From the NCBI GenBank assembly GCA_963763745.1, contig CAVXQJ010000016.1:449029-513028 (forward strand): DNA of 64,000 bases. The letters run 5' to 3'. The position numbers were made by a program, and so were the translations under genes. The notes beneath the pieces are model-generated. The model did no database searches, had not been told where the DNA came from, and saw nothing but the letters and a program-made list of their open reading frames with translations. This document shows positions 8,281 through 62,207 of this stretch, piece after piece. The stretch comes from an uncultured delta proteobacterium (GTDB taxonomy: Bacteria > Myxococcota_A > Polyangia > Polyangiales > Polyangiaceae). Numbering within the stretch: the first letter of the stretch is position 1; every line of letters starts with the position of its first letter.

Positions 8281-8298
8281 GTCGTGATAGGCAAAGGC

Positions 8299-12138: not shown

Positions 12139-13021
12139 AGGGCATCTCATAAACGTGTAGTTTGCAAGTGATCGGAATTGCTCCATGTTTCGCCCGGTAT
12201 TTCCATCCGCTCGCAGGCGTGCTGTGAGTGGTGGTCATGGACCTCACCGACAAGCAGTGGCGTCTGATCGAACCGCTGATACCGAGACGCAAACGTCGCA
12301 GCGACGGCAAAGGTCGTCCTCCGAAGGATCGCGCCCGAGCTCTCTTGAATGGGATGCTTTGGATTCTGCGCACGGGTGCGCAGTGGAAGCATTTGCCAAG
12401 AGAATATCCTCCGCGTGCGACGACACATCGTTGGTTCCAACGATGGTGCGCCGACGGAACTTGGGAATCGATACGACTCACGCTGCTGAACGACTTATGC
12501 GTTCGCGGCGGCCTGTCGCTCGAAGAGTGTTTCATCGACGGCAGCTTCGCGGCCGCCAGAAAAGGGGGCTCTGCGTTGGTCCGACGAAGGCCGGCAAAGG
12601 CACCAAGCGCATGGTGGTTGTCGATGGCCATGGCACTCCAATCGGAGTCTGCATCGAAAGCGCCTCGCCCGCCGAGATCAAACTCGTCAACGCGGTCCTC
12701 GACACCATCCCAGCGCACTTGCTCCCCGAATTCTTGATCGGCGATCGCGCTTACGACAGTGATCCGAAAGACGCCGAGCTGCTGAACGAATATGACATCA
12801 AGCTCGTTTCTCCGAATCGCAGCAATCGCATTCGGCAGACGCAAGACGGTCGAACGCTGCGACGATATTGTCGTCGCTGGATCGTCGAGCGCACGAACGC
12901 GTGGCTTTTGAATTTCCGCCGCCTCGCGAATCGCTGGGATCACCATGCGTCAAACTACGCGGGGTTTCTGCGGCTTGCGTGCATCATCATCATGCTGAGG
13001 CATTTCTGAGATGCGCTCTAG
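12135..13021 (+). mobile_element. IS5-family (IS427-group-like) insertion sequence, ~880 bp, 15-bp imperfect terminal inverted repeats, CTAG target-site duplication
   Basis: IRL ctagagggcatctca (12135-12149) matches the reverse complement of IRR tgagatgcgctctag (13007-13021) at 14/15 positions. ctag flanks both ends (12135-12138, 13018-13021). It carries two-frame transposase orfA/orfB with an A_AAA_GGG slippery motif at 12560-12566. Confidence 0.8.
12237..13009 (+). CDS. IS5/IS427-group transposase OrfAB (orfA 12237..12737; orfB frame to 13009; predicted programmed -1 frameshift at AAAAGGG ~12560)
   Basis: OrfA MDLTDKQWRLIEPLIP...GRPPKDRARALLNGMLWILRTGAQWKHLPREYPP (DUF4096-like). OrfB frame ...GKGTKRMVVVDGHGTPIGVCIESASPAEIKLV...IGDRAYDSD...RWIVERTNAWLLNFRRL (DDE). 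Neither frame contains a stop, so the element appears intact. Confidence 0.8.
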
Positions 13022-30731: not shown

Positions 30732-32628
30732 GTGTGTGGCATTGCTGGCGTCTTTGGTCTGAGTCGCGTGAGCCTGACGCGACGGATTTCGCGCGGGCGA
30801 TGTGCTTGCGCATCCGTCATCGCGGTCCAGATGGGCAGGGGACCACGTTCGCTGCACGACGTTGCGCTCGGAATGGTCCGCCTCGCGATCGTCGACGTCG
30901 AGCACGGCAAGCAACCGATGCTCAACGATGACGGAGCAGTCGCGCTCGTCTTCAACGGCGAGATTTACAATGCGCCGGCGTTACGACGTGAGCTCCAGGA
31001 TGCGGGCGTTCGATTTCACACGCGAAGCGACACGGAAGTCATTTTGCGTCTCTACGAGCGTGATCCGCACGACGTCGAAGCGGCATCTCGCGGGCATGTG
31101 GGCGTTCTGCGTTCACGATCGACGTCGGCGCAGACTCGTCTTGAGTCGAGATCGCTTCGGCATCAAACCGCTTTACTTCGTCGACCGCGGAGCGCGCACT
31201 CGCGTTCGGATCGGAGCTTGGTGCTTTCGAGCCGCTTCGCACGACTACCAAGTTCGCGCCGGCGTTCGCGATCGATCACGGGGCCGCTCACGCGATGCTC
31301 GCGTGGTCGTACATCCCCAACGAAGACACGATCTTCGAAGGCGTCAAGCGTCGTCGCTCCGAGCACGCGCCTCGAAGTCGATCTCGAGACGGGCAGCGCA
31401 GACGACGACGACGTCACTACGTCGTTCGACCGTCCGACGAAGCCTCGCGCGTGAGAGCCTTCCACGACGCGTGCGCGCTGATCGAGCCGCTCCTGCGCCG
31501 ATCGGTACGCGAGCACCTCGAGAGCGACGTGCCCATCGCCGCTTTCTTGAGTGGAGGAATCGATTCTTCGCTGATTCTCGCGCTGGCTGCCGAAGAGTCG
31601 CACGCAAACCGATTCGTGCATTCTGCATTGGTTTCCGCGAGCCGCGTTTCGACGAGTCGCCATTCGCGCGCCGCGTCGCGGAAAAACTCGGCGTGGATCT
31701 GCACGTTGAAGTCTTCGACGAAGCATCCGCTGCAGCGTCTCTTGACGATGCGCTCGCCGCATACGACGAGCCGTTCGGTGATTCGTCGAGCCTCGCAACG
31801 TTCATGCTGTCGCGCGTCGTCGCGACGAACGCACAAGGTCGCGCTCGGCGGCGACGGTGGCGACGAGGTGTTCGCCGGGTACCACAAACATCAAATCGTT
31901 CGCATTCGTCAGGCGCTCGGGCGCGTCGCCCAAGCTGCGCGATGGTATGCGCGGGTCGTTGCTCGCGCACTGCCTGCTCGCACGGATCGCTCGAGCGCGT
32001 CTCGCCGAGGCGATGCGAGTCGTTCGACGCGTCGCGCGCGGGCTCGCAAGGGCGACGACTGCTGCTTACTGCGCGCTCACCCAGGTCGCGTCGCTCGACA
32101 AGGTCGCTCCGCTCGTCGTGAGCCCGGCGGCCCCGGCCCGATTCGTGGAGCCCATCCTTCGCACGTTTGCCGAAGCAGGAGGGAGCCGAGCTGCAACGAA
32201 CGCTCGTATGCGATCTCGCGAACGTGCTCCCGAACGACATGCTCACGAAAGTCGATCGCGCGAGCATGGCGTGCGGGCTCGAGGCTCGCGTGCCGATGCT
32301 CGATCATCGCGTCGTCGAAGCCGGGCTTGGATTGCCTGCGAAGTTCACCATCGCCGGTTCCGGTAAGCGTGTGTTGCGCGAGCTGTATCGGCGCCGCTTC
32401 GGAGAGGAGCTCGCGAATCGGAAAAAAACCGGATTCAGCGTGCCGGTCGAAGCTTGGATGCGCGGACCGCTCGCATCGAAGTGTGCGGATATGATGCACG
32501 GGCACTCGGACTTGTTGCATATGTCTCGCGAGCTATGGAGCGAGTGGCTTGCGCGAGATCCACAAGCGTTATGGCACGCGTTTGCGCTCCGCTCTTGGGA
32601 AGTGGCGCGCGCTGATGGAGTGCGCTGA
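30732..32628 (+). pseudogene. asparagine synthetase (glutamine-hydrolysing) family amidotransferase paralog 1, heavily frameshifted (at least 8 shifts)
   Basis: The pieces MCGIAGVFGL (GTG start, Cys2 nucleophile), REPDATDFARAMCLRIRHRGPDGQG, LAIVDVEHGKQPMLNDDGAVALVFNGEIYN, LAGMWAFCVHDRRRRRLVLSRDRFGIKPLYF, AAFLSGGIDSS, VALGGDGGDEVFAGY and the C-terminal ...MACGLEARVPMLDHRVVE... are scattered over three frames. Confidence 0.75.
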
Positions 32629-37420: not shown

Positions 37421-38960
37421 ATGAGGGCATACATCGCCACGTTTGCGCTCGCGCTGGTCGTGTCGGCTGCGCTGACTCCTCTTGTTCGGCTGGTTGCGTT
37501 GCGTCTCGGTGCGACGTCGACGCCAGGCGGCCGAAACGTACACGTGACGCCAACGCCACGCCTCGGCGGTGTCGCGATTGTCATTGGCTTCCTTGCCCCG
37601 CTTGCCGCGCTGTTGTGTGTGAACTCTTCGGTCGCCACCTCCATTCGCAACGAAGCGCTACGCCCAATAGGGCTCCTCATTGGATCGCTAGCGATGTGTG
37701 TCGTTGGTGTGATCGACGACACCCGTCGCCTTCGAGCGAGTCACAAGCTTCTCGTTCAGGTGCTGACTGCAGCGCTTGCGTTTGGATGTGGGTTTCGGAT
37801 CGACTCCATCGCTCTCCCTTATTTCGGCACCCTGTCGATGGGAATTTTCGCTTTCGCCGTCACAGTTATTTGGATCGTCGGGATCGTCAATGCTGTCAAC
37901 CTGATCGACGGCTTGGACGGCCTCGCGGGCGGTGTCGTCCTGTTCGCCAGTTTGACGAACTTCGCAATCGCCGTAATCGAGGGCAACATTTTCATTGCGG
38001 CAATTACGGCATCGATTGTCGGCGCGGTTCTCGGGTTTCTATTTTTTCAATTTCAACCCAGCTCGCATTTTCATGGGCGACTCTGGAAGCTACTTTCTTG
38101 GTTATGCCGTGGCGACCGTCGCACTAGGTGGCCCGACGAGGTCGCAGAAGGCATCGACTGCTGTCGCGCTGCTCGTACCCTGTTTGGCGCTGGGAGTGCC
38201 CATCTTCGACACGCTCTTCTCGATGGTCCGTCGGTTCCTCGAGCGGCGCTCCATGTTTTCGCCCGATCGAGGCCACCTGCATCATCGGCTCATCGATATG
38301 GGTCTCACACATCGGCGCGCTGTGCTCACGCTTTACGGCGTGAGCGTCGTGCTATGTGTGTCAGCGATTGCGGTTACGTTCGGGCGCGGGTGGCAAGTAG
38401 GCCTTGCGGTGATTGTTGCCTCGTCCGTTCTGATGGCGCTCGTGCGCTTCGCCGGTTATTTCGAATATCTTCGAGTTCACCTGCGCCGCCGCGGGCGGAT
38501 GCGCAGTGGAGAGGCACAAGCGCTGCGTCGAGTCGTTCCCAACGCCATCGTGCAGCTGGCCGCGTGCAAGTCAGAGGCAGATGTTTGGAACAACGTTGAC
38601 GCGTTGACGGTGAAGCTGGAAAATCTTCACGCTGTCGTTAGAATTACGCGATTGTCGGACGGGAAGAGCATCTACCATTCCCCCACGCCGAGCAACGAGT
38701 CGAAGGACCTCGTAGTGATCAATACACCACTCGGCGACGAAGCAACGGCCGTCTCGCAAATCGTCGTCGCACTCGACATAGACAATGGTCTCGACATCGA
38801 AGTGGAGTTACTCGTGCAGTTGTTGGTAGATGCCATCGACGATGCGCTCGCGCACGTGAAGAGTCCGTCGGCTCGCTCATCTTCCCGTGTGACGGGCACG
38901 ACTCATGTTTGTGAGGCGATTGCGCCGACAGATCAGGTCGAGCCAAGCAGCTCGGCGTAG
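37421..38960 (+). CDS. WecA/WbpL-like undecaprenyl-phosphate N-acetylhexosamine-1-phosphate transferase (GT4 / MraY family) with ~170-aa C-terminal extension; one frameshift in a T6 run near 38046
   Basis: VIDDTRRL, IVNAVNLIDGLDGLAGG motifs. After ...GAVLGFLFF the frame shifts at ctattttttcaatttc to give ...NPARIFMGDSGSYFLGY...HLHHRLID... (second frame, ORF 37995..38960). Confidence 0.8.
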
Positions 38961-40149: not shown

Positions 40150-41394
40150 ATGTTCGGCATCGTCCTTTCCATCGTTCTTGCTGTAGTGCTCGCGACGATC
40201 TTGCGCACGTTCGAGAAGACGAACCGACTCGCAATTCCTCTCCTCGCGGGTTACGTGCTGCGGCTCATCATTCAATCGTTCATTCGCGACGTGCCACTCT
40301 TCTCTCACGGTATCGGTGGCGACTACACCGCGTACGAGAGCTGGGCACAGGTAATCGCGGCCACATGGCACCATACGGGGTTACACTTCATAACGCAGTC
40401 AGAAGTTATCGAGGTGGGCCCCACGTCGCTACCGCCAAATCTGTTCGCCCTAGTCATCTATCTCAACGACGGTCTGACCCGCATCGGTTGTACTTCAACC
40501 GTGGCATTTGCGGCGGCCATGTCAATCTTCAACATCTACACTTTGTCCCTTCAATTCGGAGCAAGGGAAAAGGACGCGTTGCTCGTTGCGATGCTGCTCT
40601 ATTTTAATCCGACCTTCGTCTTTTATACATCCGACATGTTCAAGGACGGGTTGGTGGTGTGCTTTACAATAGGCGCACTTGCCAGTGCGATTCGACTTAG
40701 CTTCAAATTGTCTGCGTTGCACGCAATCATTGGATTGGCGTGTATCTTCGCACTCTGGTACGTGCGATTCTACCTCGTGTTCGTGACCGTTGCACCGCTT
40801 CTTGTCGGGTCTATTGGTATGGGGTCGAAGTCCGTAGTCCGACCGCTTCTCGTCGCCCTCGCACTCGGCGCATCGACAATCGCCCTCGTAGCGTTCACGG
40901 ACATACTGCAACTTGCGTCGCAACGCGCTAGCGACACTTTCCAAACGGCAACGGGCATCATGGTCCAAGCAAATGCTGCATCCGGCGGATCGAGCGTCGC
41001 GTTCGACGATGGCGGTTCACCGTTTGGTGCGCTCGGGGCGAAGCTCGCATATATGCTGTTTTCACCCTTTCCCTGGGCGAGTGGATCATTTGGGTTCCAC
41101 GTAGGGAAGCTAGATTGCGTTCTCTGGTATTATCTACTCTATCGGGCGGTGCGTGGAGTGCGCCTTGCCAATCCGCGACTCGTCATTGCGCTAGCAACGT
41201 TCATCGTGCCGTGTACTTTCATGTATGCAATGAGCATGGCGAACGTAGGGCTAATCGTCCGACAGCGACTCGTTGTAGTGTTCGCCACCGCCGTGTTGGC
41301 GGCATTGTATCGAACGAAGGAGCCGGTATCGCACGAATCGGTCGAAGACCCGAGACAAGCGAAGCTGTCGCGCTTCGTACGGGCGGCGCAATGA
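40150..41394 (+). CDS. polytopic membrane protein, possible second Wzy/EpsG-like polymerase
   Basis: ~11 TM helices with a large loop near the C-terminus; no soluble catalytic motifs. Sits in the middle of the glycan locus. Confidence 0.45.
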   Translation: MFGIVLSIVLAVVLATILRTFEKTNRLAIPLLAGYVLRLIIQSFIRDVPLFSHGIGGDYTAYESWAQVIAATWHHTGLHFITQSEVIEVGPTSLPPNLFALVIYLNDGLTRIGCTSTVAFAAAMSIFNIYTLSLQFGAREKDALLVAMLLYFNPTFVFYTSDMFKDGLVVCFTIGALASAIRLSFKLSALHAIIGLACIFALWYVRFYLVFVTVAPLLVGSIGMGSKSVVRPLLVALALGASTIALVAFTDILQLASQRASDTFQTATGIMVQANAASGGSSVAFDDGGSPFGALGAKLAYMLFSPFPWASGSFGFHVGKLDCVLWYYLLYRAVRGVRLANPRLVIALATFIVPCTFMYAMSMANVGLIVRQRLVVVFATAVLAALYRTKEPVSHESVEDPRQAKLSRFVRAAQ

Positions 41395-42374
41395 ACGACG
41401 AGCATGGCCCGAGTGCCTTGTGTCACGGTCGCGGTGATGATAATCGCCGGAACATGGTTGCGGTGGTGGTCTCGGACGCATTCATTAACGACGTATTCGA
41501 ACTCGAGCGGGACATCTGCGAACGCGTTAGCGGGCTGAGCGCAGAACAAACGCTTGCTCATATCCGGCAGATGGCGAACGCGACCGACAGTTCGTGGCTG
41601 CTGTTGCGCCATTTCCTTCCAAAATTTCGCGATCCGAAGATTCTCGAGGTGGGCGCCGGGTACGGCTTGGGGTTCTGTGGCCTGCTCTCGCGCGGTCTCG
41701 ACGCATTCGCTGTCGAGCCGGGACGCGAGCCCTTTGATGGGCGGTACCACATGGCGATGAGGTTGTTGAACGACAACGACCTCGATCCGGCGCGCCTACG
41801 TCGGGGTGTAGCGGAAGCGTTGCCATTTCCCAACGATACGTTCGACGTCGTCTACAGCAACGCGGTGCTCGAGCACGTACAAGATCCGTTGAAGGCGATG
41901 GATGAAATGGCTCGTGTGCTCAAACCAGGCGGTGTAATGTTGACGCACGTACCCAACTATCATTCGTTCTATGAGGGGCATTATCGTGTGTTGTGGTTTC
42001 CTTACATTCTGAAAAGCAAGTACGTGGCAAAAGCATACGTCGATCGCGTCCACGGTCGCGATCCAGCATTCGTCGATACACTCAACTTCGTTGACACTCG
42101 ATGGTTTCAAATCTGGGCGAAAGGTCGCGGCACGACACTGCATAAACTCCCCGTGCTGCCAGTCCTCGGCAGGGTCAACCGAGCGATCAGCATGGCCGAG
42201 CACCAAATCGCTCCGGAAGGGTCCCTCGCTTCGTGGTTGCAACGCCGCGATCCGCTGGCGCGAGGCATCCTGTCGGCATCCTGTCGCGTTGCCACATCGG
42301 TCGTCCTCTCCCTCGGGTTGGCGAAAGAAATCATCGTCGTGTGGTGGAAGGCCGACCAACAGAAGCCGCATTGA
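41391..42374 (+). CDS. class I SAM-dependent methyltransferase
   Basis: ILEVGAGYGLG (motif I), VVYSNAVLEHVQDP, VLKPGGVMLT. ATGA overlap with the upstream gene. Confidence 0.7.
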   Translation: MNDEHGPSALCHGRGDDNRRNMVAVVVSDAFINDVFELERDICERVSGLSAEQTLAHIRQMANATDSSWLLLRHFLPKFRDPKILEVGAGYGLGFCGLLSRGLDAFAVEPGREPFDGRYHMAMRLLNDNDLDPARLRRGVAEALPFPNDTFDVVYSNAVLEHVQDPLKAMDEMARVLKPGGVMLTHVPNYHSFYEGHYRVLWFPYILKSKYVAKAYVDRVHGRDPAFVDTLNFVDTRWFQIWAKGRGTTLHKLPVLPVLGRVNRAISMAEHQIAPEGSLASWLQRRDPLARGILSASCRVATSVVLSLGLAKEIIVVWWKADQQKPH

Positions 42375-42405: not shown

Positions 42406-44235
42406 ATGCGAATTTATCTTGCGGATCTCGGACATAACCAGCTCACGAGAAGCTCGGATCCCTATCCGTTGGGCGTTGCCAACTTGGCCACGTACACCGA
42501 AGCCAACGTCCGCAGCGCGACGCCCTTGCAGATTTGCATGTTTCGCGAGCCCGAGGGCTTGAAGGCGGCGATCGACTCCGACCCGCCCGATATCTTGGCG
42601 CTGTCGAACTATGCGTGGAACGAAACACTATCGCTCCATTTTGCGCGCTACGGGCGCCGCCGCAACGAGCACACGCTTACGGTTCTTGGCGGACCCAACT
42701 TCCCGTTAACGGCACCCGAGCAGGAGGCCTTCGTTCGCGAGGTTAGCGACTCCGTCCACGTCGTCGTCAACGGCCCGACCTACGAAGGTGAGCGTGCGTT
42801 CGTCGGGTTGGTGCAACGGTTTTCGGATGCCGGTCGATCAATCGAGGGTCTGATGGAGGCACCCGTTGCAGGAAGCCTGTGGGTTGACTCGCAAGAGCGC
42901 TTCGTCGCTGGCGGCGAAGTTGAGCGGATCTCCGATCTCGACGAGATCCCCTCGCCATACCTCCGTGGTTGGATGGATCCGTTTTTCGCCACTGGGTACT
43001 TTCCGATGATGCAGATAGCGCGCGGCTGTCCGTTTTCCTGTGCGTTTTGCAACTCGGGAGTCGGGTCGAACAGCAAGATTTACGCGCATTCGATCGCGAA
43101 CGTGAAGGCTGACTTGGACTACATCGTTGCGCGCGTGCAGCCGGAAATCCCGTTGTGCTTCGCCGACGACAACTTCGGCATGTATCAGCGCGATGAGGAG
43201 ATTGCCGACTACCTCGGCTGGCTCCAAGAGAACAAAGCGTGGCCCAAGTACATCCGCACCACCACCGGAAAGAACAACTCGGAGCGAATCATCCGAGTGA
43301 TGCGTAAAGTCAAGGGCGCTCTACCCATGACGGCGGCCGTCCAATCCACTGACCCACACGTGCTCAAGTTGATCAAACGCGATAACGTCAAGCTCTCGAC
43401 CTACGCCCGGATTCAGCAGGAGCTGCGCGAACAGGGGATGCAGTCGTACGGAGAACTTATCCTTTGCTTGCCGGGCGAAACGAAGCAGACGTTCCTCAAG
43501 GCCGTACGCGATCTCATGGCAGCCGGTGCGAGTCGGATTTCCGCGCACCAGCTCATGCTCCTCCACGGCGCCGAGCTCTCCAATCCCGAAAGCCGTCGGG
43601 CGTTCGGCTTCGATACGCGATTTCGCATCGTCGCACGCAACATCGGTGATTATACGGGAGAGCCCGTGGTCGAAACGGAAGAGATGGTGGTGGCGACGCC
43701 GAGCTTCTCGTATCAGGACTACCTCGACACCCGCGTCTTCCATCTGCTCCTCACGATCTTCTACTACGAAGGCAACTTCGACGAGGCCTTCGCCCTAGCC
43801 AAAGAGGCTGGCGTGCAACCATTCGAGATCGTCGTCCACATGCAAGCGATGCTCGCTCAAGCACCGGCCGGCTTCCGGGCGCTCATCGACGACTTCCTCC
43901 GCGAGAGCCAAGACGAGCTGTTCACGACCCGCGCAGCGTGCGTCGAATGGGCAAAGAAGCACTTCGCCCAGCTGGTCGACGGCACGCTTGGCGGCAACTT
44001 GTTGAGCAAGTATTCCATGATCGGCCGCTTCCTGACGACGAAAGAAAGCCTGCGCTTCTTGCGAGATGGCATCGCGGGCGCAAGCGGGGTCGACCCTCGC
44101 GAGCTGGACGCCGTCATCGGATATCTCGACTGCGTTTTGCTGCGAGCGCCATTTCGGCGAAATGATCGAGGCGCGCCCGTGCTGGGAAACCGAGTTCGAC
44201 GTCGAGAGCTGGTACCAGAAAAGCAGTCGCAGTAA
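42406..44235 (+). CDS. B12-binding domain radical SAM enzyme (class B radical SAM family); may actually extend to 44443 through a T-run frameshift near 44131
   Basis: N-terminal B12-binding-like region; CPFSCAFC (CxxxCxxC) radical SAM cluster motif; long C-terminal domain. The downstream frame (ORF 44066..44443) continues protein-like with no break. Confidence 0.75.
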   Translation: MRIYLADLGHNQLTRSSDPYPLGVANLATYTEANVRSATPLQICMFREPEGLKAAIDSDPPDILALSNYAWNETLSLHFARYGRRRNEHTLTVLGGPNFPLTAPEQEAFVREVSDSVHVVVNGPTYEGERAFVGLVQRFSDAGRSIEGLMEAPVAGSLWVDSQERFVAGGEVERISDLDEIPSPYLRGWMDPFFATGYFPMMQIARGCPFSCAFCNSGVGSNSKIYAHSIANVKADLDYIVARVQPEIPLCFADDNFGMYQRDEEIADYLGWLQENKAWPKYIRTTTGKNNSERIIRVMRKVKGALPMTAAVQSTDPHVLKLIKRDNVKLSTYARIQQELREQGMQSYGELILCLPGETKQTFLKAVRDLMAAGASRISAHQLMLLHGAELSNPESRRAFGFDTRFRIVARNIGDYTGEPVVETEEMVVATPSFSYQDYLDTRVFHLLLTIFYYEGNFDEAFALAKEAGVQPFEIVVHMQAMLAQAPAGFRALIDDFLRESQDELFTTRAACVEWAKKHFAQLVDGTLGGNLLSKYSMIGRFLTTKESLRFLRDGIAGASGVDPRELDAVIGYLDCVLLRAPFRRNDRGAPVLGNRVRRRELVPEKQSQ

Positions 44236-44443
44236 GCTCGCGGAACTCCGTTTCGACGCTCCGCGCAAGTTCGTCGCCGAGGTCAGCCCCGACAACGCGT
44301 CTATGCTCAAGACGCGCCTCAAGACGTTCGGAGAGCATCCGTCGGGGCTTGGCAAGTTCACGCGTACGTTGTTCGCACGCAGCCTACGGCGCGAACTGCG
44401 TGATTCGGCCGCCGACTCTCATGGAGAGCGGCGCACAGCGTAG

Positions 44444-45583
44444 GTGACACTGCTGATTTTCTGCTCAACGGAGGTCGGCGGCTTCCCTTTTCAAATGGCC
44501 GCGATTCTCCGGCGTCACGGGTGGAACGCATATTACGTCTCGATTGACCGTGCCGATGGAGGACACGATTCGACGGTTTTCCATTTCGGTCGGAGTTCGG
44601 AGCCATGGGACCTGTCACACCGATTTACTGGGACGCTTTCGTCTCTGCAGGTGGTGCGACGTCTCAAACAGATCGCCCGCGAGTTCGGGATTTCGAACGC
44701 GCTCGCGACGGGCCTTCGGGCGTATTTGCTGCGCTCGGCAGGCATCGCATACCGTTACTGGACGTACGGTGCGGATCTCGACCAATACCACGTTACCCCG
44801 CCCGCACACGGCGACCTGCGCGGCATGATGCGCCTGCCGCTACGGTGGTTGTTCGTCAACGCATACATCCGGCCGATGTTACTCCGGACGTACCGGCGAG
44901 CCGATGCGGTGATGATTGCAGCTTATCAAAAGGACACTTTGCGACGCGTGCATCCGCATGCACCGCTGTTCTTTCTCCCGCATTTTTTCGAGACGCGATC
45001 GTGGGACGAGCTGCAGAAGCAGAGGCTGGCAGCGCACGCCGTTCTGTGCCGCCGGTTCGCTAGCGAATACGTCTTGTTCAGCTCCGTACGTCAATATTGG
45101 AAGGGCGCGAAGTGCCGCCGCAAAGAGAACGTGAGCAACTGCAAAGGCAACGACTTATTGATAGAAGCATTTGCAAAGTACTGCGTTGCCGACAAGAGGC
45201 GACGGACTACCCTCTTGTTGGTTGACAAGGGCCCCGACGTGGAAGAAAGCAAGCTCCTCGCGCGCAAACTCGGAGTGGGCGAACGAATTGTTTGGCTTAG
45301 CGAAGTATCTCGCAAGGAGCTCGACCAATACTATCTCGGAGCAAACCTCTGCCTAGGGAGCTTCGGAGAAGCTGGCGCGGCCAGCTTCTCCGCAATTGAG
45401 CCGCTCGCGTTGGGTACGCCGTGCATTTCGTGGCTCAAGGTGGACCCTGAAGTGCCGTTTTATTCCGAGGGCCCAACGCTGTTTTCATCCAGGAATCCGT
45501 CCGAGATCGGGCCCGTATTCGGAGCGTTCTCACTGATCCTGCAACGGAGGAGAAGCTATCGTACGAGGCGTGGAGTTGGGTGA
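44444..45583 (+). CDS. GT-B fold glycosyltransferase-like protein
   Basis: C-terminal ...LLLVDKGPDVEESKLLARKLGVGERIVWLSEVSRKELDQYYLGANLCLGSFGEAGAASFSAIEPLALGTPCIS resembles the GT1 nucleotide-sugar binding domain. The N-terminal domain is divergent. Confidence 0.5.
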   Translation: MTLLIFCSTEVGGFPFQMAAILRRHGWNAYYVSIDRADGGHDSTVFHFGRSSEPWDLSHRFTGTLSSLQVVRRLKQIAREFGISNALATGLRAYLLRSAGIAYRYWTYGADLDQYHVTPPAHGDLRGMMRLPLRWLFVNAYIRPMLLRTYRRADAVMIAAYQKDTLRRVHPHAPLFFLPHFFETRSWDELQKQRLAAHAVLCRRFASEYVLFSSVRQYWKGAKCRRKENVSNCKGNDLLIEAFAKYCVADKRRRTTLLLVDKGPDVEESKLLARKLGVGERIVWLSEVSRKELDQYYLGANLCLGSFGEAGAASFSAIEPLALGTPCISWLKVDPEVPFYSEGPTLFSSRNPSEIGPVFGAFSLILQRRRSYRTRRGVG

Positions 45584-45718: not shown

Positions 45719-47574
45719 ATGTGCGGAGTTTGTGGTTTCACTGGCGTACGCAATCACGAATCGCTGGTTCGGATGGCGACTGCCATCGCGCACCGTGGAC
45801 CCGACGACGCCGGCTACTGGGAGAGCGACGACGTCTCGCTGGGGATGCGTAGACTCGCCATCATCGACGTCGAGAGTGGCCAGCAACCGGTATTCAACGA
45901 AGATGGTTCAGTCTGCGTCGTGTTCAACGGCGAAGTATACAACCACGCCGAGCTCCGCGCCGACCTTGAATCAAAGGGGCATGCCTTTCGCAGCCATCAC
46001 TCCGACACGGAGGTGCTCGTTCACCTGTACGAAGAATACGGCGAGGAGTTCCTTCATCGGTTAAACGGGATGTTCGCGATCGCGATGTGGGACAACCGGC
46101 ACAAGCGTCTTATTCTCGCGCGCGACCGCGCGGGGATCAAGCCACTCTACTTCACGCAGAGCGGCGGCCGCGTTATTTTGCGTCTGAGATTAAGTCGCTG
46201 CTCGCGCATCCAGACATCAAGAGAGAGCCGTGCTTCACTGCGCTCTACCACTACTTCAGTTTCAAGCACGTGCCGGCGCCGTGGAGCGCATTCGCGGGCA
46301 TCGAACAGCTTCGCCCGGGCGAGAGGGTCATCTTCGAGCGAGGCGTGCTCCGTCGCGAGACTTGGTGGGCACTCAAGTTTCGAGAAGACGGCAAGCTTGA
46401 TGAGAGCGAGGCGGCGACGCGCATTCGCGCTCTCCTCGAAGACGCGGTTCGGATTCGCATGCGTTCGGACGTTCCGTTCGGCGCATACCTCTCGGGCGGC
46501 GTGGACAGCTCGACCATAGTGGCGCTCATGTCGCGCATTGGCGGACGGCGAGTGACAACGTTCTCGCTCGTCTACTCGGACGAGTTCAAACACAAGGCCG
46601 CCGACCAAGAATACGCGCGGCAGATGTCATCGCTTTATGGCACCGATCACCACGAGTACGTGCTCACGCAACGCGACGTTGTCGACAGCATCGGTGCTGT
46701 CGTTGCGTCCTTTGACGAGCCGTTTTCGGGAGTGACTTCCACGTATTTCATCACGCGGCTCATCTCGAAGCACGTCAAAGTCGCACTCTCCGGCGACGGA
46801 GCGGACGAGCTCTTCGGGAGCTACCTTGCGCACAGGCTGGCGCAACCCATTCATCATCTCGAAGTCATGCGCGATCGCTTGACGACACTCACGCCGGAAG
46901 AAAAGAACCTACTCCGGCCGTATCACGACAGACCGGAGTACCTAACAGCGATACTCGAACGCGGCGACGATGCGGCGCGTCGCGCGAGCCTCTACCTGTG
47001 GACCGACGCCGAGAAGGCTGAGCTACTGAGCACCGAAATGCTCGCGCGCGTGCCGCGCGCGAGCACGGAGGGTTTGATACGCGAAGTCTATGCGGCGTCG
47101 GGGACAAACGATCCGTTGAACCGTGCTCTCTACTGCGATTTCGTGACCCTCCTACCGGATCAAGTGCTCGCGTTCGTCGATCGGTTGTCTATGGCGCACT
47201 CGGTTGAAGTGAGGCCGCCGTTCCTCGATTATCGCATTATCGAGCTCGCTGGCACGATCCGCGGATCTATCAAAATCAAGGGCGGAAGAGAAAAGCACGT
47301 ACTAAAGGAAGCCGTCAAAGGACTGATTCCCGACGCGGTGATCAACCGTCCGAAAGAGGGTTTCGTTCTCCCGATCGACGAGTGGCTCGTCTCCGACATG
47401 CGGCCGTTCGTCGAAGAACTCCTCACGCCGTCGCGTCTCATGCGCCACGGCCTCGTGCGGCCTGAGCCCGTGCGAAGAATCTTGGACGAGCACTACGCGC
47501 GAAAGAAAAATCACGGCGCGCGAATCTGGAATCTGATGATGTTCCAGAGCTGGTGCGAGCGCTATGTCACATGA
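45719..47574 (+). CDS. asparagine synthetase family amidotransferase paralog 2 (one frameshift in a T-run at ~46175)
   Basis: MCGVCGFTG (Cys2), RRLAIIDVESGQQPVFNEDGSVCVVFNGEVYN, then a shift at gttattttgcg to ...FASEIKSLLAHP...AYLSGGVDSS...ALSGDGADELFGSY...VEVRPPFLD... Confidence 0.8.
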
Positions 47575-49042
47575 ATTGGCGCAGTTGACCCAGTGGTCGT
47601 CCGCGGCGGAGCGAGTCCTCCGCACCGCCTATGGGGCATTGCTTCTCTTGCAACTCGGCATGACGGCCCGGCAGTCGAAGCGGTTTTTCGTTTCGGAAAA
47701 ACACGGTGGTTACGTCGAGTCGTCGCCGCTGCGCGATAGGCTGCTTACTCCGTGGTCCGCACAGGTGGTGACGGTCGTGTGGATGCTCGCGGCTCTCGGA
47801 ATCGTCGCAGATGTTGCTCTGCTTCCCGCCACCATCGTTAACCTGGCACTCTGTCGCTACTTCTTCGTCGAGATGCGGTGGAAAGGCATCCTTCGCGGCA
47901 TGGGCGCGCCGGGCTACATGACGTATTGGATGGCATGCCTCGTGGCACTATTTGCCCTCGCACACGCCATTGATCGCACGGGATTGCTACGAGCCATTAC
48001 CCTTCTCACCTTCCGCGTCGACTACGCGTTGATCATGTTCATGGCCGGTGTGTACAAGTTGACTGCGGGGTACGCACGTGGTGAGGGATTCGAACGAGGG
48101 CTCGTCAATCCGTGGTGGGGTTTTTGGGCACGGCGGATGCGGAGGCTTCCGCCGCAGGCGGCGGCGTTTCGCGTCCTGAATCATTTGGGCTGGTCGGTGG
48201 AGATCGTCTGCGGCGTGCTATTTCTCGTTCCGCAAGTGGGAGTGTATGCGGGGGCACTCTTCGCCGGTAGTTTTCTGATGATCGCCGCAACGATTCGCCT
48301 CACTTTTCTCGCTGAGATGGTTGCCGTCGGCACCGTATTGTTCGTCTATCCCCACACCGGCTTCGACGATTGGTTGGTCGGCGTCATCCGTGTTTCGGAC
48401 GCGGCACCGTCCGGCTCCACGATTGGGGACGTATTGGCGTGGGCTCTCGTTGCCTGTTTGGTGGTGTACCTGGCGCTGCTTCCGCTCGCGTATGCTGGGA
48501 TGTCGGTCAACTTCTACGCGCGAAAACGCCTAGTGGGTCCGCTACAGCGCTGGCTTGACTGGTGGATCCGCCTGACAGGCCTGATCCTTTGGCGGGTATT
48601 TACGTCCGACGTGATCAACTTCTACGCGGACATCGGCATTCGATCGCAGGCTTCGGATCCCCCCACACCGTATCTGACCATGCGTCCCTGGGACGCGCGG
48701 ACCGAGTGGCGCTACATGCATGTCGGAGAGTTCATCTGCTTGGCGTCGATTTTCACCACTCTCAAGTACTATCCCAAAGATCGTGCGCTGTTCGAGGCGC
48801 GGATCCTACGTTACTGTCGCTCGCTGCCAGTGCCGTCCGGCGGCGAGGTTGTTTTCGACTATCGAACCATCGTAAAAGGTGCGACTGGCTTTGAGTTTCC
48901 CATCGTGGCACGCTTCGTCGTGAACACCGCGACGGGGAAAGTGGAAGAGCATACGCTCGATCCATCGTTCGACCTGCGCGCTCCGGCTCGCGCTTCTCCG
49001 GTATACGCCGGCACGCGCCCAGGCAGTTACGCGCCGAGTTGA
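47564..49042 (+). CDS. polytopic membrane protein, possibly HTTM (vitamin K-dependent gamma-carboxylase-like) domain family
   Basis: ~8-10 TM helices and Trp/Tyr-rich loops (NPWWGFWARRMRRLP). The 11-nt overlap with asnB2 suggests co-translation. The family assignment is from memory of sequence style, not verified. Confidence 0.4.
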   Translation: MSHELAQLTQWSSAAERVLRTAYGALLLLQLGMTARQSKRFFVSEKHGGYVESSPLRDRLLTPWSAQVVTVVWMLAALGIVADVALLPATIVNLALCRYFFVEMRWKGILRGMGAPGYMTYWMACLVALFALAHAIDRTGLLRAITLLTFRVDYALIMFMAGVYKLTAGYARGEGFERGLVNPWWGFWARRMRRLPPQAAAFRVLNHLGWSVEIVCGVLFLVPQVGVYAGALFAGSFLMIAATIRLTFLAEMVAVGTVLFVYPHTGFDDWLVGVIRVSDAAPSGSTIGDVLAWALVACLVVYLALLPLAYAGMSVNFYARKRLVGPLQRWLDWWIRLTGLILWRVFTSDVINFYADIGIRSQASDPPTPYLTMRPWDARTEWRYMHVGEFICLASIFTTLKYYPKDRALFEARILRYCRSLPVPSGGEVVFDYRTIVKGATGFEFPIVARFVVNTATGKVEEHTLDPSFDLRAPARASPVYAGTRPGSYAPS

Positions 49043-56999: not shown

Positions 57000-57078
57000 T
57001 CGCGTGACCACACGTACCGCGTCCGCGCATGTACAGCAAGTTGCTTCAGCGCGCGACCTGGGCTACGTGATTGCTGAG

Positions 57079-58964
57079 ATGTGCGGCATCTTGGGCTCCG
57101 TGTTCGACGCTCAATGCATGGACGTCGCCGGCGCGCTCAAGCGCCTACGACACCGTGGGCCCGACGCCGAGGGCGTCTTTCGCGACGAGGGCGTGGTGCT
57201 TGGGCACACGCGGCTTTCGATTCTCGACTTAAGTCCGCTCGGCGTGCAACCGATGCGGAGCGCCGACGGTCGAGCCGTCGTCGTCTTCAATGGTGAAATA
57301 TACAACCATCATGAGCTTCGTGCGGAACTCCAGAAGTGCGGCCGTTCGTTTCGCTCTCGCTCCGATACGGAGGTGATCGTCGAAGGGTATTGCGAATACG
57401 GTGTAGCGTTTTTCGAACGACTTGACGGGATGTTCGCCATCGCCTTGTTCGACCGCAAACAGCGCCGACTCGTTCTCGTGCGCGACCGAACTGGGAAGAA
57501 GCCGCTCTTCTACACCCGCTGCGGCGGCAACGTACGATTCGCCTCGGAGATACGTGCCCTGTTCGCGCTTGGCACTCCGTCGACACTCCGATTGGCGTCG
57601 TTGCCGCTGCTGCTGTCACTCGGGTATGTGCCGCCGCCCGCGACGTTGTACGAACACGTTGCGCAGCTCCCACCGGCCACGATCCTTGACATCACGGAGA
57701 ACGCGTCGCCCGAGGTTCGCACGTTTTGGAGGGCGCCGTTCAACGCGGAGCCGCTCGACGTCGGCGTAATCGAAGCAACGCGCGAGGTGCGGCGCCTCAC
57801 CGAGCAAGCGGTGCTGAGACGCCTTGAAGCGGACGTGCCGCTCGGTGCATTTCTGTCGGGCGGCATCGATTCGTCGGTCGTCGTCGGGTTGATGGCGCGC
57901 ATGTCGACGAAGCGTGTGAAGACATTCTCCATCGGATTTTCGCAAGACGCCCGTTTCGACGAAACGCGTTACGCGCGAATCGCCTCCGATGCATTCGACA
58001 CCGATCACACTGAATTTACCCTCGAGCCAAGCTCGATCGACTTGCTCGATCGTCTCGTCGAGGCTCACGACGGTCCGTTCGGGGATTCGTCTGCAGTCCC
58101 CACGAGCGTCGTATCGATGCTGACGCGCAAGCACGTGACGGTAGCGCTTACGGGCGACGGTGGAGACGAGTTGTTCGCTGGATACAACATCTTTCTCCGC
58201 GTGACGGCCGCCGAAGCCGTGCCCCAACCGCTTCGAACGCTCGCACGGGCGCTAACAACACACCTTCCGTTAGACGGTCAAGCCTTCAATCGGTTGACAC
58301 GCGCCCTACACGTGGCGGCGCTATCGCTTCCCGAACGAATGCTGCACTGGCAGTCGTATTTCACGAACGACCTTGGCGCGCTCTTGACGCGCGAGCTGCG
58401 CACGAGCGTCGATTTGGATGCCGCTAAGAGTTGGATTCGTCTGCTCGGCGCGCGCACGGGGGCCGCCTCTCCACTAACACGCGCGTTGCAGATCAACTTC
58501 GATTCGTACCTACCATTTGACTTGCTGGTGAAGGCCGACCGTGCATCGATGCTTCATTCGCTAGAGCTCCGATCCCCGTTCCTCGACACCGAGCTCATCG
58601 AATACGCCTCACGGCTGCCGGATCGCTTCCGCCGGCGTCACAGAGTCACCAAATGGATCTTGCGGCGCGCCTTCCGCGACATTGTTCCAGCGCCGATTCT
58701 TCACGCGGCAAGATGGGATTTGGCATGCCGCTCGCGACGTGGTTTCGAACGAGCCTTCGGGAGCTCGTCCGAGACACGCTATGCAGGTCGGCTCGCCTCG
58801 GGCAGTTCGTCGATCTGGCCTACGTCGACCGCTTGCTCGATGAGCACGACAGCGGCGTGCGCGATCACCATAATCCGATATGGCTTCTCTTGACGATGGA
58901 GCGCTGGCTGCATCTTCTCCCCACGTGGACGCGAATGACGAACGCACCAGAGGTATCAGTATGA
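57079..58964 (+). CDS. asparagine synthetase family amidotransferase paralog 3 (one frameshift ~58705, probably a G-run indel)
   Basis: MCGILGSVFD (Cys2), TRLSILDLSPLGVQPMRSADGRAVVVFNGEIYNHHEL, AFLSGGIDSSVVV, ALTGDGGDELFAGY, LELRSPFLD. After ...APILHA the frame shifts to ...KMGFGMPLATWFRTSLRELVRDTL...*. Confidence 0.8.
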
Positions 58965-60836: not shown

Positions 60837-62060
60837 TCAAACGATTCGAACGTCGGGTATCGGCACGATGAACTTGCCGCCGGCATCACGGTACGCCGCT
60901 TGTTGACGCAGAATTTCGTCCGCGAAGTTCCATGTAAGAAGTAGGCAGTAGTCCGGCATCGCCTCTGCAAGGTGCGCTGGGCCGAGAATCGGAATGTGTG
61001 AGCCTGGCATGTAATGATTTTGTTTGTGGGGACTGCGGTCAACCACGAAGTCGATTGTGTCGGCGCCGATACCCATGTACGTTAGTAGGGTGGTTCCCTT
61101 AGCCGCAGCACCATAAGCCGCGACACGCTTGCCTTGGCGTTTTAGATCGGCAAGCAGTGTCTTGAGAGTGTCGCGCAGTGTTTGGACTCGGCGCGCGAAA
61201 GTGCGGTAGAAAGCGAGATGGCCCATCCCCATGTGCGCTTCTTCTTCGAGAAGCCGTTTGACGTTCTCTCCGCGCTGAAAGCTTGATGCCGGAGACACAA
61301 AAATGCGAAGCGAGCCACCGTGCATCGGTATGTGTTCCACGTCCCGCAGCACCAAACCGCTACGGGCAAACAGTTTATCAAGCGCAGTCGCGGAAAAGTA
61401 ACAAAGATGTTCATGGTAGATCGTATCGAATTCGCATCGCTCAACGAGATCGCGCACATAGGGCGCTTCGATGATCGCAACACCAGTCGGCTTCAACAGC
61501 GTAGCAATGCCCTCAACCACCCCGTTGAGATCTGCAACGTGCGCGAGCACGTTGTTGGCATGAAGGACGTCGACACGTTTGCCATCGCGAGCAAGCTCAC
61601 TGGCTAACTCGGATCCGAAAAACTTCGCAAGCGTTGGAACGTTGCGTTCTTCGACGGCAACACGAGCAATATTGGTCGCGGGCTCGATGCCGAGTACTGG
61701 CACGCCGGCCTGGACATAATGTTGCAGCAGGTAGCCATCATTGCTCGCAATCTCGACAACAAACGAGTTGCGCGTAAGCTTTTCGGTTTCGATCATTCGC
61801 GTCGCGATGGTCTTCGCATGTGTGACCATCGTGTCGGAAAACGAGGAGAAATAGAGGTAGTCGGAGAAGAGCACGTCAGGCGGGACGGTCTCAGTGATCT
61901 GAACCAGCGTGCAGCAAGCGCAGAAGGCTAGGTCCAGTGGATACGTTTGCTCCGGACGCGACAATTCCTGCTCCGTGAGCAGTGAGTTCGCGAGCGGCGT
62001 CCTGCCAAGTGAGAGGATGAGGTCAAGATCAGTGGCCTGGCAGAGACGACAACGAGTCAT
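60837..62060 (-). CDS. NDP-hexose C-methyltransferase (TylC3-like family, N-terminal Zn-ribbon plus class I MTase)
   Basis: MTRCRLCQ...CACCTLVQ Cys4 ribbon; VVEIASNDGYLL; the C-terminal domain pattern matches sugar 3-C-methyltransferases. Confidence 0.7.
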   Translation of the reverse strand: MTRCRLCQATDLDLILSLGRTPLANSLLTEQELSRPEQTYPLDLAFCACCTLVQITETVPPDVLFSDYLYFSSFSDTMVTHAKTIATRMIETEKLTRNSFVVEIASNDGYLLQHYVQAGVPVLGIEPATNIARVAVEERNVPTLAKFFGSELASELARDGKRVDVLHANNVLAHVADLNGVVEGIATLLKPTGVAIIEAPYVRDLVERCEFDTIYHEHLCYFSATALDKLFARSGLVLRDVEHIPMHGGSLRIFVSPASSFQRGENVKRLLEEEAHMGMGHLAFYRTFARRVQTLRDTLKTLLADLKRQGKRVAAYGAAAKGTTLLTYMGIGADTIDFVVDRSPHKQNHYMPGSHIPILGPAHLAEAMPDYCLLLTWNFADEILRQQAAYRDAGGKFIVPIPDVRIV

Positions 62061-62207
62061 GCGTGATTCTTCTACTTTCTGCACCAGCTGCGTGCAAGAG
62101 CGGGTGGACGCTACAAGCCGACAATGCTAGAGACGCTGCGGAATCAGGGGACATTCACTGAATCCGGAGCTCGGAAGAGCAACGAACACACTCGTGCGGG
62201 ACGAATC

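What the first reader, a model, noticed from the sequence alone, without database searches (positions are those of the whole stretch)
42406..44443. B12-binding radical SAM enzyme embedded in the glycan locus, with a probable hidden C-terminal extension
The protein is a class B radical SAM enzyme (CxxxCxxC = CPFSCAFC) downstream of a SAM methyltransferase and upstream of a GT-like gene. Such enzymes methylate unactivated carbons, which fits further sugar C-methylation or another radical modification. The annotated stop at 44235 is followed by 200 nt of clean protein-like coding in another frame (ORF 44066..44443). A 1-nt error in a T-run at ~44131 probably truncates the call.
Basis: partly seen in the sequence, partly recalled or inferred. 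Interest (0 to 1): 0.55.

Follow-up and report, generated by a model that had tools for sequence, protein, structure and literature searches.

The report
Frameshifted B12 radical SAM methylase gene
One gene for a 678-residue vitamin-B12-dependent radical SAM enzyme, sitting in a surface-sugar gene cluster, is split in this sequence by a single extra base, so its last 95 residues were missed; the fix is routine, but the enzyme family is widespread and uncharacterised.

Summary
ORF 42406-44235 (609 aa, frame 1) and ORF 44066-44443 (frame 2) are two pieces of one gene. More than 100 homologues of 666-722 aa (57-69% identity, at least 8 phyla) align colinearly across both pieces. Removing one base gives a 678-aa protein whose stop (44441-44443) abuts the start of the next gene (44444).

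The repaired protein models confidently (pLDDT 90.9). It matches the cobalamin-dependent radical SAM methylases TokK and CysS over its full length (TM 0.71-0.77). It keeps the CxxxCxxC motif, the Trp placed under the cobalt, and a DDNFG motif aligned to TokK's DANFG. In TokK and CysS, residues about 30 from the C-terminus line the active site, so the 609-aa call is probably inactive.

Error versus real mutation is unresolved. Four neighbouring glycan genes also carry indels, yet the rSAM sequence shows no decay, so I favour an assembly error (about 0.65).

Elsewhere the family sits in a conserved cassette: GT-C, reductase, rSAM, small GT2, sugar C-methyltransferase, CDP-glucose synthase, dehydratase. 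That points to radical methylation of a 6-deoxyhexose. No family member has been characterised. Interest is modest.

The parts
42406..44154 (+). Codons 1-583 of the radical SAM gene (frame 1). Approximate domains: cobalamin-binding Rossmann domain residues 1-190, radical SAM partial barrel about 191-432, first part of the C-terminal domain 433-583.
   Evidence: ORF list. Pfam and NCBIfam hits. tblastn frame-1 HSPs 42406-44154 at 65-72% identity. AF2 secondary structure. Domain limits are by analogy with CysS (PMC12846815).
42616..42618 (+). Trp71 codon. It is the equivalent of TokK Trp76 and CysS Trp75, which sit under the cobalt of cobalamin.
   Evidence: The HMM alignment to TokK places the family motif SNYAWN on TokK SCYVWN. 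W71 is invariant in 120 sequences.
43027..43050 (+). CPFSCAFC: the CxxxCxxC motif (Cys208/212/215) for the [4Fe-4S] cluster.
   Evidence: Translation. All three Cys are invariant in 120 family members and align to TokK C206/C210/C213.
44152..44155 (+). Frameshift site TTTC between CCA (Pro582) and GGC (Gly584). One of these four bases is surplus.
   Evidence: Frame-1 HSPs end at 44154 and frame-2 HSPs begin at 44153. Three-frame view. The spacing PF-x9-W matches the family only if one base is removed.
44156..44443 (+). Codons 584-678 plus the TAG stop (frame 2): the missed C-terminal 95 residues, including the conserved motif TFGEHPSGLGKFTRTLFARSLRR.
   Evidence: Alignments. All 19 columns that are at least 90% conserved are retained. 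pLDDT is 76-97 up to residue 670, falling to 53 in the last block. The stop abuts the next gene's GTG at 44444.
44156..44235 (+). Out-of-frame tail of the 609-aa call (RRNDRGAPVLGNRVRRRELVPEKQSQ*). It is not real protein sequence.
   Evidence: No similarity to any homologue in the alignment.
41391..42374 (+). Upstream class I SAM methyltransferase (327 aa from the ATG at 41391, whose ATGA overlaps the stop of the preceding gene).
   Evidence: Pfam Methyltransf_11/23/25. Start analysis.
44444..45583 (+). Downstream GT-B glycosyltransferase (Glycos_transf_1), starting on the base after the repaired rSAM stop.
   Evidence: Pfam. Junction TAG|GTG.

Best explanation
42406-44443 is one gene for a 678-residue, three-domain, cobalamin-dependent (class B) radical SAM enzyme of the TokK/ThnK/CysS structural type. 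In this sequence it is interrupted by one surplus base at 44152-44155. Shown: gene callers therefore stop at 44235 and lose the last 95 residues, which form an integral, conserved part of the C-terminal domain. Inferred, about 0.65: the surplus base is an assembly or consensus error rather than a real mutation.

Inferred mechanism of the intact enzyme. One SAM methylates cob(I)alamin. A second SAM is cleaved at the [4Fe-4S] cluster to a 5'-deoxyadenosyl radical. That radical abstracts H from an unactivated sp3 carbon of the substrate, and the substrate radical takes the methyl group from methylcobalamin.

Inferred from gene neighbourhoods: the substrate is a sugar of a cell-envelope glycan, most likely a nucleotide- or polyprenyl-phosphate-linked 6-deoxyhexose.
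For: One gene:
- All other copies (86 loci in all, from genome contigs, and encoding-contig look-ups) encode it in one frame; of the 83 tested, only L077 is shifted.
- Frame-1 and frame-2 HSPs meet at 44153/44154.
- The repaired stop abuts the next start codon.

Class and type:
- Radical_SAM passes the Pfam cut-off.
- The best PDB sequence hits are TokK (4e-54) and CysS (8e-53).
- The AF2 model has pLDDT 90.9 and pTM 0.90.
- Foldseek aligns 650-707 columns to TokK and CysS at TM 0.68-0.77. The next hit, TsrM, reaches only 0.48.
- W71 aligns to TokK W76, a residue shared in that sequence context only by TokK, ThnK and CysS among characterised enzymes.
- DDNFG aligns to TokK DANFG, and invariant R284 aligns to TokK's substrate-binding R280.

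The C-terminus matters: TokK Tyr652 (of 681) and CysS Asp607 and His617 (of 645) contact substrate or SAM.

Not decayed: the window protein deviates at 9 of 260 highly conserved columns (family median 5, 95th percentile 12) and at 0 of 19 after the shift. The post-shift stretch has no stop codon (95 codons, 584-678).

Glycan role:
- A small ArnC/PpgS-like GT2 lies directly downstream in 54 of 79 loci.
- A sugar C-methyltransferase together with an RfbF-like cytidylyltransferase lies within 10 kb in 32 of 46 well-flanked loci.
- The gene order GT-C > reductase > rSAM > GT2 > C-MT > NTP-transferase > dehydratase recurs across phyla.
Against: - No read data, so error versus mutation is open.
- Five glycan-locus genes in this window carry indels, while roughly nine housekeeping genes checked (sucC, sucD, ffh, radA, alaS and others) are intact. 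That pattern could mean a genuinely decaying locus.
- The Pfam B12-binding hit is below its cut-off (22.7 versus 32.1 bits).
- The C-terminal domain has no sequence-level similarity to TokK or CysS. Equivalence of its residues with their active-site residues rests on fold and position only.
- TokK's active-site Trp215 is Ser217 here.
- The window lacks the family's usual GT2 and cytidylyltransferase partners. Transferring the cassette-based substrate inference to this copy is therefore weaker.
- Some class B enzymes are not methylases (OxsB, BchE, HpnJ, AprD4-like).
Confidence: 0.8

Rival explanations
1. The frameshift is a real mutation. The gene is a recent pseudogene (or yields a truncated, inactive 609-aa product) within a glycan locus that is being inactivated.
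For: At least 6 indels sit in 5 genes between 30.7 and 58.9 kb: an AsnB-like gene with at least two shifts near 31.06 and 31.2 kb, a WecA-like gene in a T6 run at 38042-38047, the rSAM gene, an AsnB gene in a T4 run at 46176-46179, and an AsnB gene near 58700-58710. About 12 kb of checked housekeeping coding sequence shows none. A/T homopolymer density is the same in both regions.
Against: There are no nonsense codons and no excess of substitutions at conserved positions. All 19 conserved post-shift positions are kept. Under a uniform error rate the intact housekeeping genes are only mildly unlikely (my Poisson estimate, P about 0.08). MAG consensus quality is often worse in strain-variable islands (general knowledge).
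Confidence: 0.3
2. Programmed +1 ribosomal frameshift at CCA-UUU-C: tRNA-Phe slips from UUU to UUC, so the full-length protein is made from the sequence as it stands.
For: UUU to UUC re-pairing in the P site is chemically possible. The sequence gives a seamless APF|GEM junction.
Against: CGG, the next 0-frame codon, is not rare here (16% of Arg codons). I saw no Shine-Dalgarno-like stimulator in the sequence just upstream. None of about 200 homologues needs a shift at this site. The other broken genes in the locus shift in both directions in unrelated contexts.
Confidence: 0.03
3. A naturally split enzyme. A 609-aa catalytic subunit and a separate protein of about 93 aa (ATG at 44162, frame 2) assemble non-covalently.
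For: An in-frame ATG exists at 44162.
Against: No ribosome-binding site precedes that ATG. No homologue is split. The 26-residue out-of-frame tail has no homologues. The AF2 model predicts folded strands and helices throughout residues 584-670.
Confidence: 0.02

Closest known systems
TokK / ThnK (carbapenem C6 sequential methylases; PDB 7KDX, 7KDY)
   Same: Length is about 680 aa with three domains: Cbl-binding Rossmann domain, radical SAM barrel and a large C-terminal domain. Full-length Foldseek match at TM 0.71-0.76. The CxxxCxxC motif, the Trp under the cobalt (W71 = W76), the DxNFG motif and an Arg aligned to substrate-binding R280 are all shared.
   Different: Only 23-24% identity. Active-site Trp215 is Ser217. 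The C-terminal domain is unrecognisable by sequence. The genomic context is glycan biosynthesis, not a beta-lactam cluster, and the substrate is unknown.
CysS (cystobactamid iterative O-methyl to ethyl/isopropyl/butyl methylase; PDB 9N1B-D)
   Same: The profile hit (8e-53) covers residues 12-533, with TM 0.68-0.77. It has the same Trp under the cobalt. Residues near its C-terminus (D607, H617) take part in substrate and SAM binding.
   Different: 19-20% identity. CysS acts on a pantetheinyl- or carrier-bound aminobenzoate. There is no evidence here for iteration or for an O-methyl substrate, although a class I methyltransferase sits directly upstream in the window.
NCBIfam NF033712, KedN5 family methylcobalamin-dependent radical SAM C-methyltransferases
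   Same: It is the best NCBIfam model (7.8e-57), covering residues 21-402.
   Different: The score is 192.9 bits against a cut-off of 700, and the C-terminal 220 model positions are unmatched. The protein is not a member.
GenK / GenD1 / Fms7 (aminoglycoside sugar C-methylases, class B radical SAM)
   Same: They are cobalamin-dependent radical methylases acting on unactivated sugar carbons. This is the functional precedent for the proposed chemistry (list in PMC12931638; PMC5819394 listed).
   Different: They work in secondary-metabolite pathways. No specific sequence relationship was tested here. They are not associated with polyprenyl-phosphate GT2 and GT-C delivery genes.
ArnC/ArnT-type and GtrB/GtrC-type lipid-carrier sugar decoration modules
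   Same: In most relatives the rSAM is translationally coupled to an ArnC/PpgS-like small GT2 and lies near GT-C (PMT_2-like) membrane transferases.
   Different: Those known modules contain no radical SAM enzyme and no C-methyltransferase. The window copy has a GT-B enzyme instead of the GT2.

Membership tests
Radical SAM superfamily | CxxxCxxC motif within a domain matching PF04055 above its gathering score | tested here: met
   C208/C212/C215 are present. PF04055 scores 35.7 bits against a 29.5 cut-off over model positions 2-166 of 166. The cysteines are invariant in 120 relatives.
Radical SAM superfamily | SAM-binding elements retained (GGE-like motif after beta-2) | tested here: met
   A253-D-D-N-F-G258 is invariant or nearly so and aligns with TokK DANFG. 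Assigning this motif to SAM binding rests on general knowledge of the superfamily.
Class B (cobalamin-dependent) radical SAM enzymes | N-terminal cobalamin-binding Rossmann domain | tested here: met
   By sequence alone it is sub-threshold (PF02310 22.7 bits versus 32.1). Most relatives carry a precomputed PF02310 hit. The AF2 model aligns over its full length with the Cbl-bound TokK and CysS structures.
Class B (cobalamin-dependent) radical SAM enzymes | Actual cobalamin binding and cobalamin-dependent turnover | not testable with these tools
   Requires purified protein.
TokK/ThnK/CysS structural subgroup | Three-domain architecture of about 630-680 aa with a large C-terminal domain | tested here: met
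   Foldseek aligns 650-707 columns at TM 0.68-0.77. The next-best fold, TsrM, reaches 0.48.
TokK/ThnK/CysS structural subgroup | Trp on the lower axial face of cobalamin, in the S-x-Y-x-W-N context | tested here: met
   W71 is invariant and aligns to TokK W76.
TokK/ThnK/CysS structural subgroup | Active-site Trp two residues after the third cluster Cys (TokK W215) | tested here: not met
   The family has invariant Ser217 (FCNSG) where TokK has CDWG.
TokK/ThnK/CysS structural subgroup | Sequential (iterative) methylation of one carbon centre | not testable with these tools
   Biochemical property.
NCBIfam NF033712 (KedN5 family) | Whole-protein score at or above the curated cut-off (700 bits) | tested here: not met
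   192.9 bits, with only model positions 17-396 of 624 matched.
Uncharacterised ~680-aa glycan-locus B12-rSAM family (this work's grouping) | Colinear full-length homology including the C-terminal motif TFGEHPxGxGKFTRTxFAR | tested here: met
   Met only after removing one base. Coverage is 97-100% at 60-69% identity. The motif is intact.
Uncharacterised ~680-aa glycan-locus B12-rSAM family (this work's grouping) | Small GT2 (about 260 aa) immediately downstream on the same strand | tested here: not met
   Present in 54 of 79 relatives. The window has a 379-aa Glycos_transf_1 protein instead and no homologue of the GT2.
Uncharacterised ~680-aa glycan-locus B12-rSAM family (this work's grouping) | Sugar C-methyltransferase (Methyltransf_13/14) and cytidylyltransferase within 10 kb | tested here: not met
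   Both occur in 32 of 46 relatives. In the window the C-methyltransferase is 16.4 kb away (60837-62084, minus strand). No RfbF-like gene was found by tblastn across the window.
Programmed ribosomal frameshift | Shift site conserved in homologues, with a stimulatory element or hungry codon | tested here: not met
   No homologue is shifted at this site. CGG makes up 16% of Arg codons. No SD-like element was seen upstream.

The most novel reading that the evidence does not exclude
This family would be the first cobalamin-dependent radical SAM methylase dedicated to a cell-envelope glycan. It would work with the co-operonic SAM-dependent sugar C-methyltransferase. It would add one or more further methyl groups to an unactivated carbon of a CDP- or polyprenyl-phosphate-linked 6-deoxyhexose, for example extending a C-methyl branch or C6. 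The product would then be delivered by an ArnC/ArnT-like GT2 and GT-C route. The cassette occurs across Planctomycetota, Acidobacteriota, Gemmatimonadota, Chloroflexota and marine Alphaproteobacteria, which implies a widespread, chemically undescribed sugar.
Probability: 0.35. Interest if true: 0.6.

Novelty: new member of a known kind. Interest (0 to 1): 0.38.

Why it matters
For this genome the result is an annotation repair. The deposited 609-aa product is truncated and carries 26 wrong residues at its end. Four neighbouring glycan genes need the same check, which flags either poor local consensus quality or a decaying locus.

Beyond the window, the repaired protein belongs to a very conserved family (57-69% identity across at least 8 phyla; 3880 of the 8000 scored candidates matched at E <= 0.001, a set that also includes more distant relatives). 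It has the TokK/CysS architecture, and no member appears among the characterised B12-radical SAM enzymes listed in a 2026 review.

Its tight coupling to a lipid-carrier GT2, a sugar C-methyltransferase and a CDP-glucose pathway gives a concrete, testable lead to radical C-methylation in cell-surface glycans. Cultured Ruegeria isolates carry the gene (L068).

Tried and rejected
- Looking up the deposited 609-aa protein's contig failed: it is not on record. The cluster look-up gave no accession or organism. A 90%-identity SucC cluster containing a Polyangiaceae MAG is the only taxonomic hint.
- The source genome was not among the 80 GTDB-representative loci returned (best 69% identity).
- An exact-pattern scan of metagenome contigs for the shift site, allowing 2-4 bases in the T-run, found nothing. 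No independent copy of the allele exists to settle error versus mutation.
- Searches with the C-terminal domain, as a single sequence and as a 22-sequence profile, found nothing in the PDB.
- GC3 and codon-usage frame plots confirmed the shift here but were too noisy to census frameshifts across the window.
- Three literature searches for a characterised B12-rSAM in O-antigen, LPS or polysaccharide pathways returned nothing relevant; a fourth, on B12-rSAM, glycosyltransferases and Planctomycetes, likewise.
- Programmed frameshifting and a split-gene arrangement were considered and rejected (see rival explanations).
Full report
**1. What is in the sequence**

The window holds ORF 42406-44235 (+, 609 aa) and, in the next frame, ORF 44066-44443 (+, 125 aa). 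The first ORF carries CPFSCAFC at residues 208-215. It matches Pfam Radical_SAM above threshold (35.7 versus 29.5 bits) and B12-binding below threshold (22.7 versus 32.1 bits). Its best NCBIfam model is the KedN5 family of methylcobalamin-dependent radical SAM C-methyltransferases. The score is only 192.9 bits against a cut-off of 700, and only the N-terminal 400 residues match.

**2. Are the two ORFs one gene?**

I joined the two frames and searched 5.8 billion proteins. Apart from the deposited 609-aa call itself (P0001), the best 119 hits are 666-722 aa long. They cover 97-100% of the joined 678-aa query at 60-69% identity.

In the alignment, frame 1 follows the family up to ...YLDCVLLRAPF. 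Frame 2 follows it from GEMIEARPCWETEFDVESW... to the end. The frame-1 tail (RRNDRG...QSQ*) matches nothing.

tblastn with five homologues, and later with all 83 fetched loci, puts the end of the frame-1 HSP at 44154 and the start of the frame-2 HSP at 44153. GC3 phase switches at the same place.

Family-invariant L579, P582 and F583 are encoded in frame 1 at 44140-44154. G584 onward is encoded in frame 2 from 44156. The surplus base is therefore one of TTTC at 44152-44155. Removing one base reproduces the family's PF-x9-W spacing.

The repaired gene is 678 codons. Its TAG stop at 44441-44443 is followed immediately by the GTG start of the next gene. Upstream, the methyltransferase start at 41391 overlaps the preceding gene's stop (ATGA). 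The genes 40150-41394, 41391-42374, 42406-44443 and 44444-45583 therefore form a tightly packed co-directional run, followed after a 135-nt gap by 45719-47574 and 47564-49042.

**3. What kind of enzyme?**

A profile of the family finds two solved structures: TokK (7KDX, E 4e-54) and CysS (9N1B, E 8e-53). An AlphaFold2 model of the repaired protein, built from a 120-sequence alignment, is confident (mean pLDDT 90.9, pTM 0.90). The last 95 residues are included, with block pLDDT of 76-97 up to residue 670.

Foldseek aligns 650-707 columns of the model with TokK (TM 0.71-0.76) and CysS (TM 0.68-0.77). The next fold, TsrM, reaches only 0.48. The protein therefore has the three-domain architecture of these cobalamin-dependent radical SAM methylases: Cbl-binding Rossmann domain, radical SAM barrel, and a large C-terminal domain (PMC12846815; bioRxiv 10.1101/2021.07.10.451909).

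Specific residues support this:
- Invariant W71 (SNYAWN) aligns with TokK W76. That Trp lies under the cobalt. Among characterised enzymes it is shared in this context only by TokK, ThnK and CysS.
- C208, C212 and C215 align with the TokK cluster cysteines.
- DDNFG aligns with TokK DANFG.
- Invariant R284 aligns with TokK R280, which binds the substrate carboxylate.
- TokK W215 is not conserved; the family has Ser217. This fits a different substrate.

By sequence, the C-terminal domain is unrelated to anything in the PDB.

**4. Does the missing C-terminus matter?**

In TokK, Tyr652 (of 681) binds the substrate. In CysS, Asp607 and His617 (of 645) contact the substrate and the SAM used to methylate cobalamin.

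The family's most conserved C-terminal motif, TFGEHPxGxGKFTRTxFAR (residues 640-658 of 678), sits at a comparable distance from the end. Equivalence at residue level is an inference, because I could not superpose coordinates. Even so, a 609-aa product that lacks residues 584-678 and ends in 26 unrelated residues is very unlikely to be active.

**5. Error, mutation, or something programmed?**

The window copy is not degenerate. It deviates from consensus at 9 of 260 highly conserved columns before the shift (family median 5, 95th percentile 12). It deviates at 0 of 19 after the shift. The 95 post-shift codons (584-678) are free of stop codons.

Programmed +1 slippage on UUU-C is chemically possible but unsupported. 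CGG is a normal Arg codon here (16% of Arg codons). I saw no stimulatory element upstream. No homologue is shifted at this site; only L077 has a shift, near codon 33.

A split-gene reading starting at ATG 44162 has no ribosome-binding site and no precedent among homologues.

The gene is not alone, however. Homology and Pfam show frame changes in four more genes of the same locus:
- an AsnB-like gene at 30732-32494, with at least two shifts;
- the WecA/MraY-like initiating transferase, in a T6 run at 38042-38047;
- an asparagine synthase at 45719-47574, in a T4 run at 46176-46179;
- an asparagine synthase at 57004-58916, near 58700-58710.

The shifts include both insertions and deletions, and most lie in short homopolymers. 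There are no nonsense codons.

The housekeeping genes I checked in 1-28 kb are intact: sucC, sucD, ffh, radA, alaS, an aldo-keto reductase and two AAA ATPases. A/T run density is similar in the two regions. Under a uniform indel rate, the intact roughly 12 kb of checked housekeeping coding sequence has P of about 0.08. This is my own Poisson estimate and is suggestive only.

An exact search of metagenome contigs for the site found no second copy. I judge a consensus or assembly error, perhaps concentrated in a strain-variable island of a MAG, at about 0.65. A real and very recent frameshift is about 0.3.

**6. What does the family do?**

I fetched 80 loci from GTDB representative genomes and six more from encoding-contig look-ups, and clustered their ORFs.

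The carriers are labelled in their record titles (some labels are doubtful) as Planctomycetota, Acidobacteriota, Gemmatimonadota, Chloroflexota, Rokubacteria, Elusimicrobia, Methylococcaceae and Alphaproteobacteria (Ruegeria, Henriciella, Parvularculaceae). The proteins are 56-69% identical to the window copy.

The most constant partner is a GT2 of about 260 aa directly downstream, often overlapping the rSAM stop. It is present in 54 of 79 loci. Its best NCBIfam hits are ArnC, PpgS and PgfS, which are polyprenyl-phosphate glycosyltransferases.

In 32 of 46 loci with at least 5 kb on both sides, two further genes lie nearby:
- a sugar C-methyltransferase (Methyltransf_13/14);
- an RfbF-like glucose-1-phosphate cytidylyltransferase (282.5 bits against a cut-off of 300.25).

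The recurring gene order is GT-C (about 709 aa, PMT_2-like) > SDR reductase > rSAM > GT2 > C-methyltransferase > cytidylyltransferase > dehydratase/epimerase.

This reads as a self-contained module. It would make a CDP-activated C-methyl-6-deoxyhexose, load it on a polyprenyl phosphate, and transfer it to a periplasmic acceptor. The rSAM would add a radical methylation somewhere along that route. All of this is inference from gene context.

Precedent for cobalamin-dependent radical methylation of sugar carbons exists in aminoglycoside pathways (GenK, GenD1, Fms7). A 2026 review of B12-dependent radical SAM enzymes does not contain the words 'sugar', 'polysaccharide' or 'glycan', and its list of characterised enzymes shows no evident cell-surface glycan member. 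My literature searches found none either.

**7. How the window copy differs**

The window copy lacks the GT2 and the cytidylyltransferase. Instead it sits between a class I methyltransferase and a GT-B glycosyltransferase, inside a larger O-antigen/EPS-type locus. That locus contains:
- a Wzy_C-domain protein;
- a WecA-like initiating transferase;
- several GT4 enzymes;
- three AsnB paralogues (two full-length-type genes and one degenerate AsnB-like gene);
- a PseC/ArnB-like aminotransferase;
- a dTDP-glucose-4,6-dehydratase-like SDR;
- a Methyltransf_13/14 C-methyltransferase at 60837-62084 (minus strand).

The substrate inference therefore transfers to this copy with less certainty.

**8. 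Verdict**

As an object it is an ordinary annotation artefact, or a recent lesion, in a new member of a known enzyme class. The added value is the family-level lead: a TokK/CysS-type enzyme embedded in a conserved lipid-carrier sugar-decoration cassette. Interest 0.38.

Noticed in passing
window 45719-47574 (+): An asparagine synthase is split into a GATase ORF (45719-46519) and an Asn_synthase ORF (46087-47574). Homologues join at about 46153-46177. A T4 run at 46176-46179 would need to be T5 to read ...GRVIFASEIKSL.
   Followed up: partly
window 37421-38960 (+): The WecA/MraY-like Glycos_transf_4 gene is split between ORFs 37421-38599 and 37995-38960. The frame change falls in a T6 run at 38042-38047. 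With T5 it would read ...LGFLFFNFNPARIFMGDSGS.
   Followed up: partly
window 57004-58916 (+): A third AsnB gene (629-aa ORF) has its last ~70 residues (RGKMGFGMPLATWF...) in another frame from about 58700-58710. This is another hidden C-terminal extension. It would overlap the start of the GT2 gene at 58880.
   Followed up: partly
window 30732-32494 (+): An AsnB-like gene has at least two frame changes (about 31061-31081 and about 31200-31283) and weak similarity to homologues (23-39% in its longer matches). It is the most degenerate gene of the locus.
   Followed up: partly
loci L011, L013, L014, L018, L028, L037, L040, L065, L080, L081 (around position 10000): The conserved cassette GT-C(709 aa) > SDR > rSAM > small GT2 > Methyltransf_13/14 C-methyltransferase > RfbF-like cytidylyltransferase > SDR recurs across phyla. 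It is often flanked by PMT_2 GT-C, GT2 and FAD amine-oxidase/GLF-like genes.
   Followed up: partly
window 5318-6898 (-): A flavin amine-oxidase ORF matches only Pfam model positions 3-266 of 443. The codon-usage best frame switches near 6000 into ORF 5347-6099. This may be a further frameshift outside the glycan locus, but it is not confirmed by homology.
   Followed up: partly
window ~9307-9464 (+): Only the first ~50 positions of a Peptidase_M20 domain are present at the end of ORF 7665-9464. This is a truncated or frame-broken gene.
   Followed up: no
window 12185-13009 (+); 17820-18956 (+); 24325-25548 (-): There is a DDE transposase fragment (model positions 34-199) and two paralogous AAA_14/DUF4143 ATPases, lying among housekeeping genes (radA, alaS, ffh, sucCD).
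   Followed up: no
L077 10001-12030; L033 3238-5280; L066 266-2443: Three other public MAG copies of the rSAM gene look broken. L077 has a frame change near codon 33. L033 and L066 give only 431- and 450-aa ORFs, although each matches in a single frame.
   Followed up: partly
window 30000-59000 vs 1-28000: The glycan locus has lower G+C (60.2%) than the housekeeping part (64.7%) and a weak codon-usage signal. This is consistent with an accessory or horizontally acquired island.
   Followed up: no
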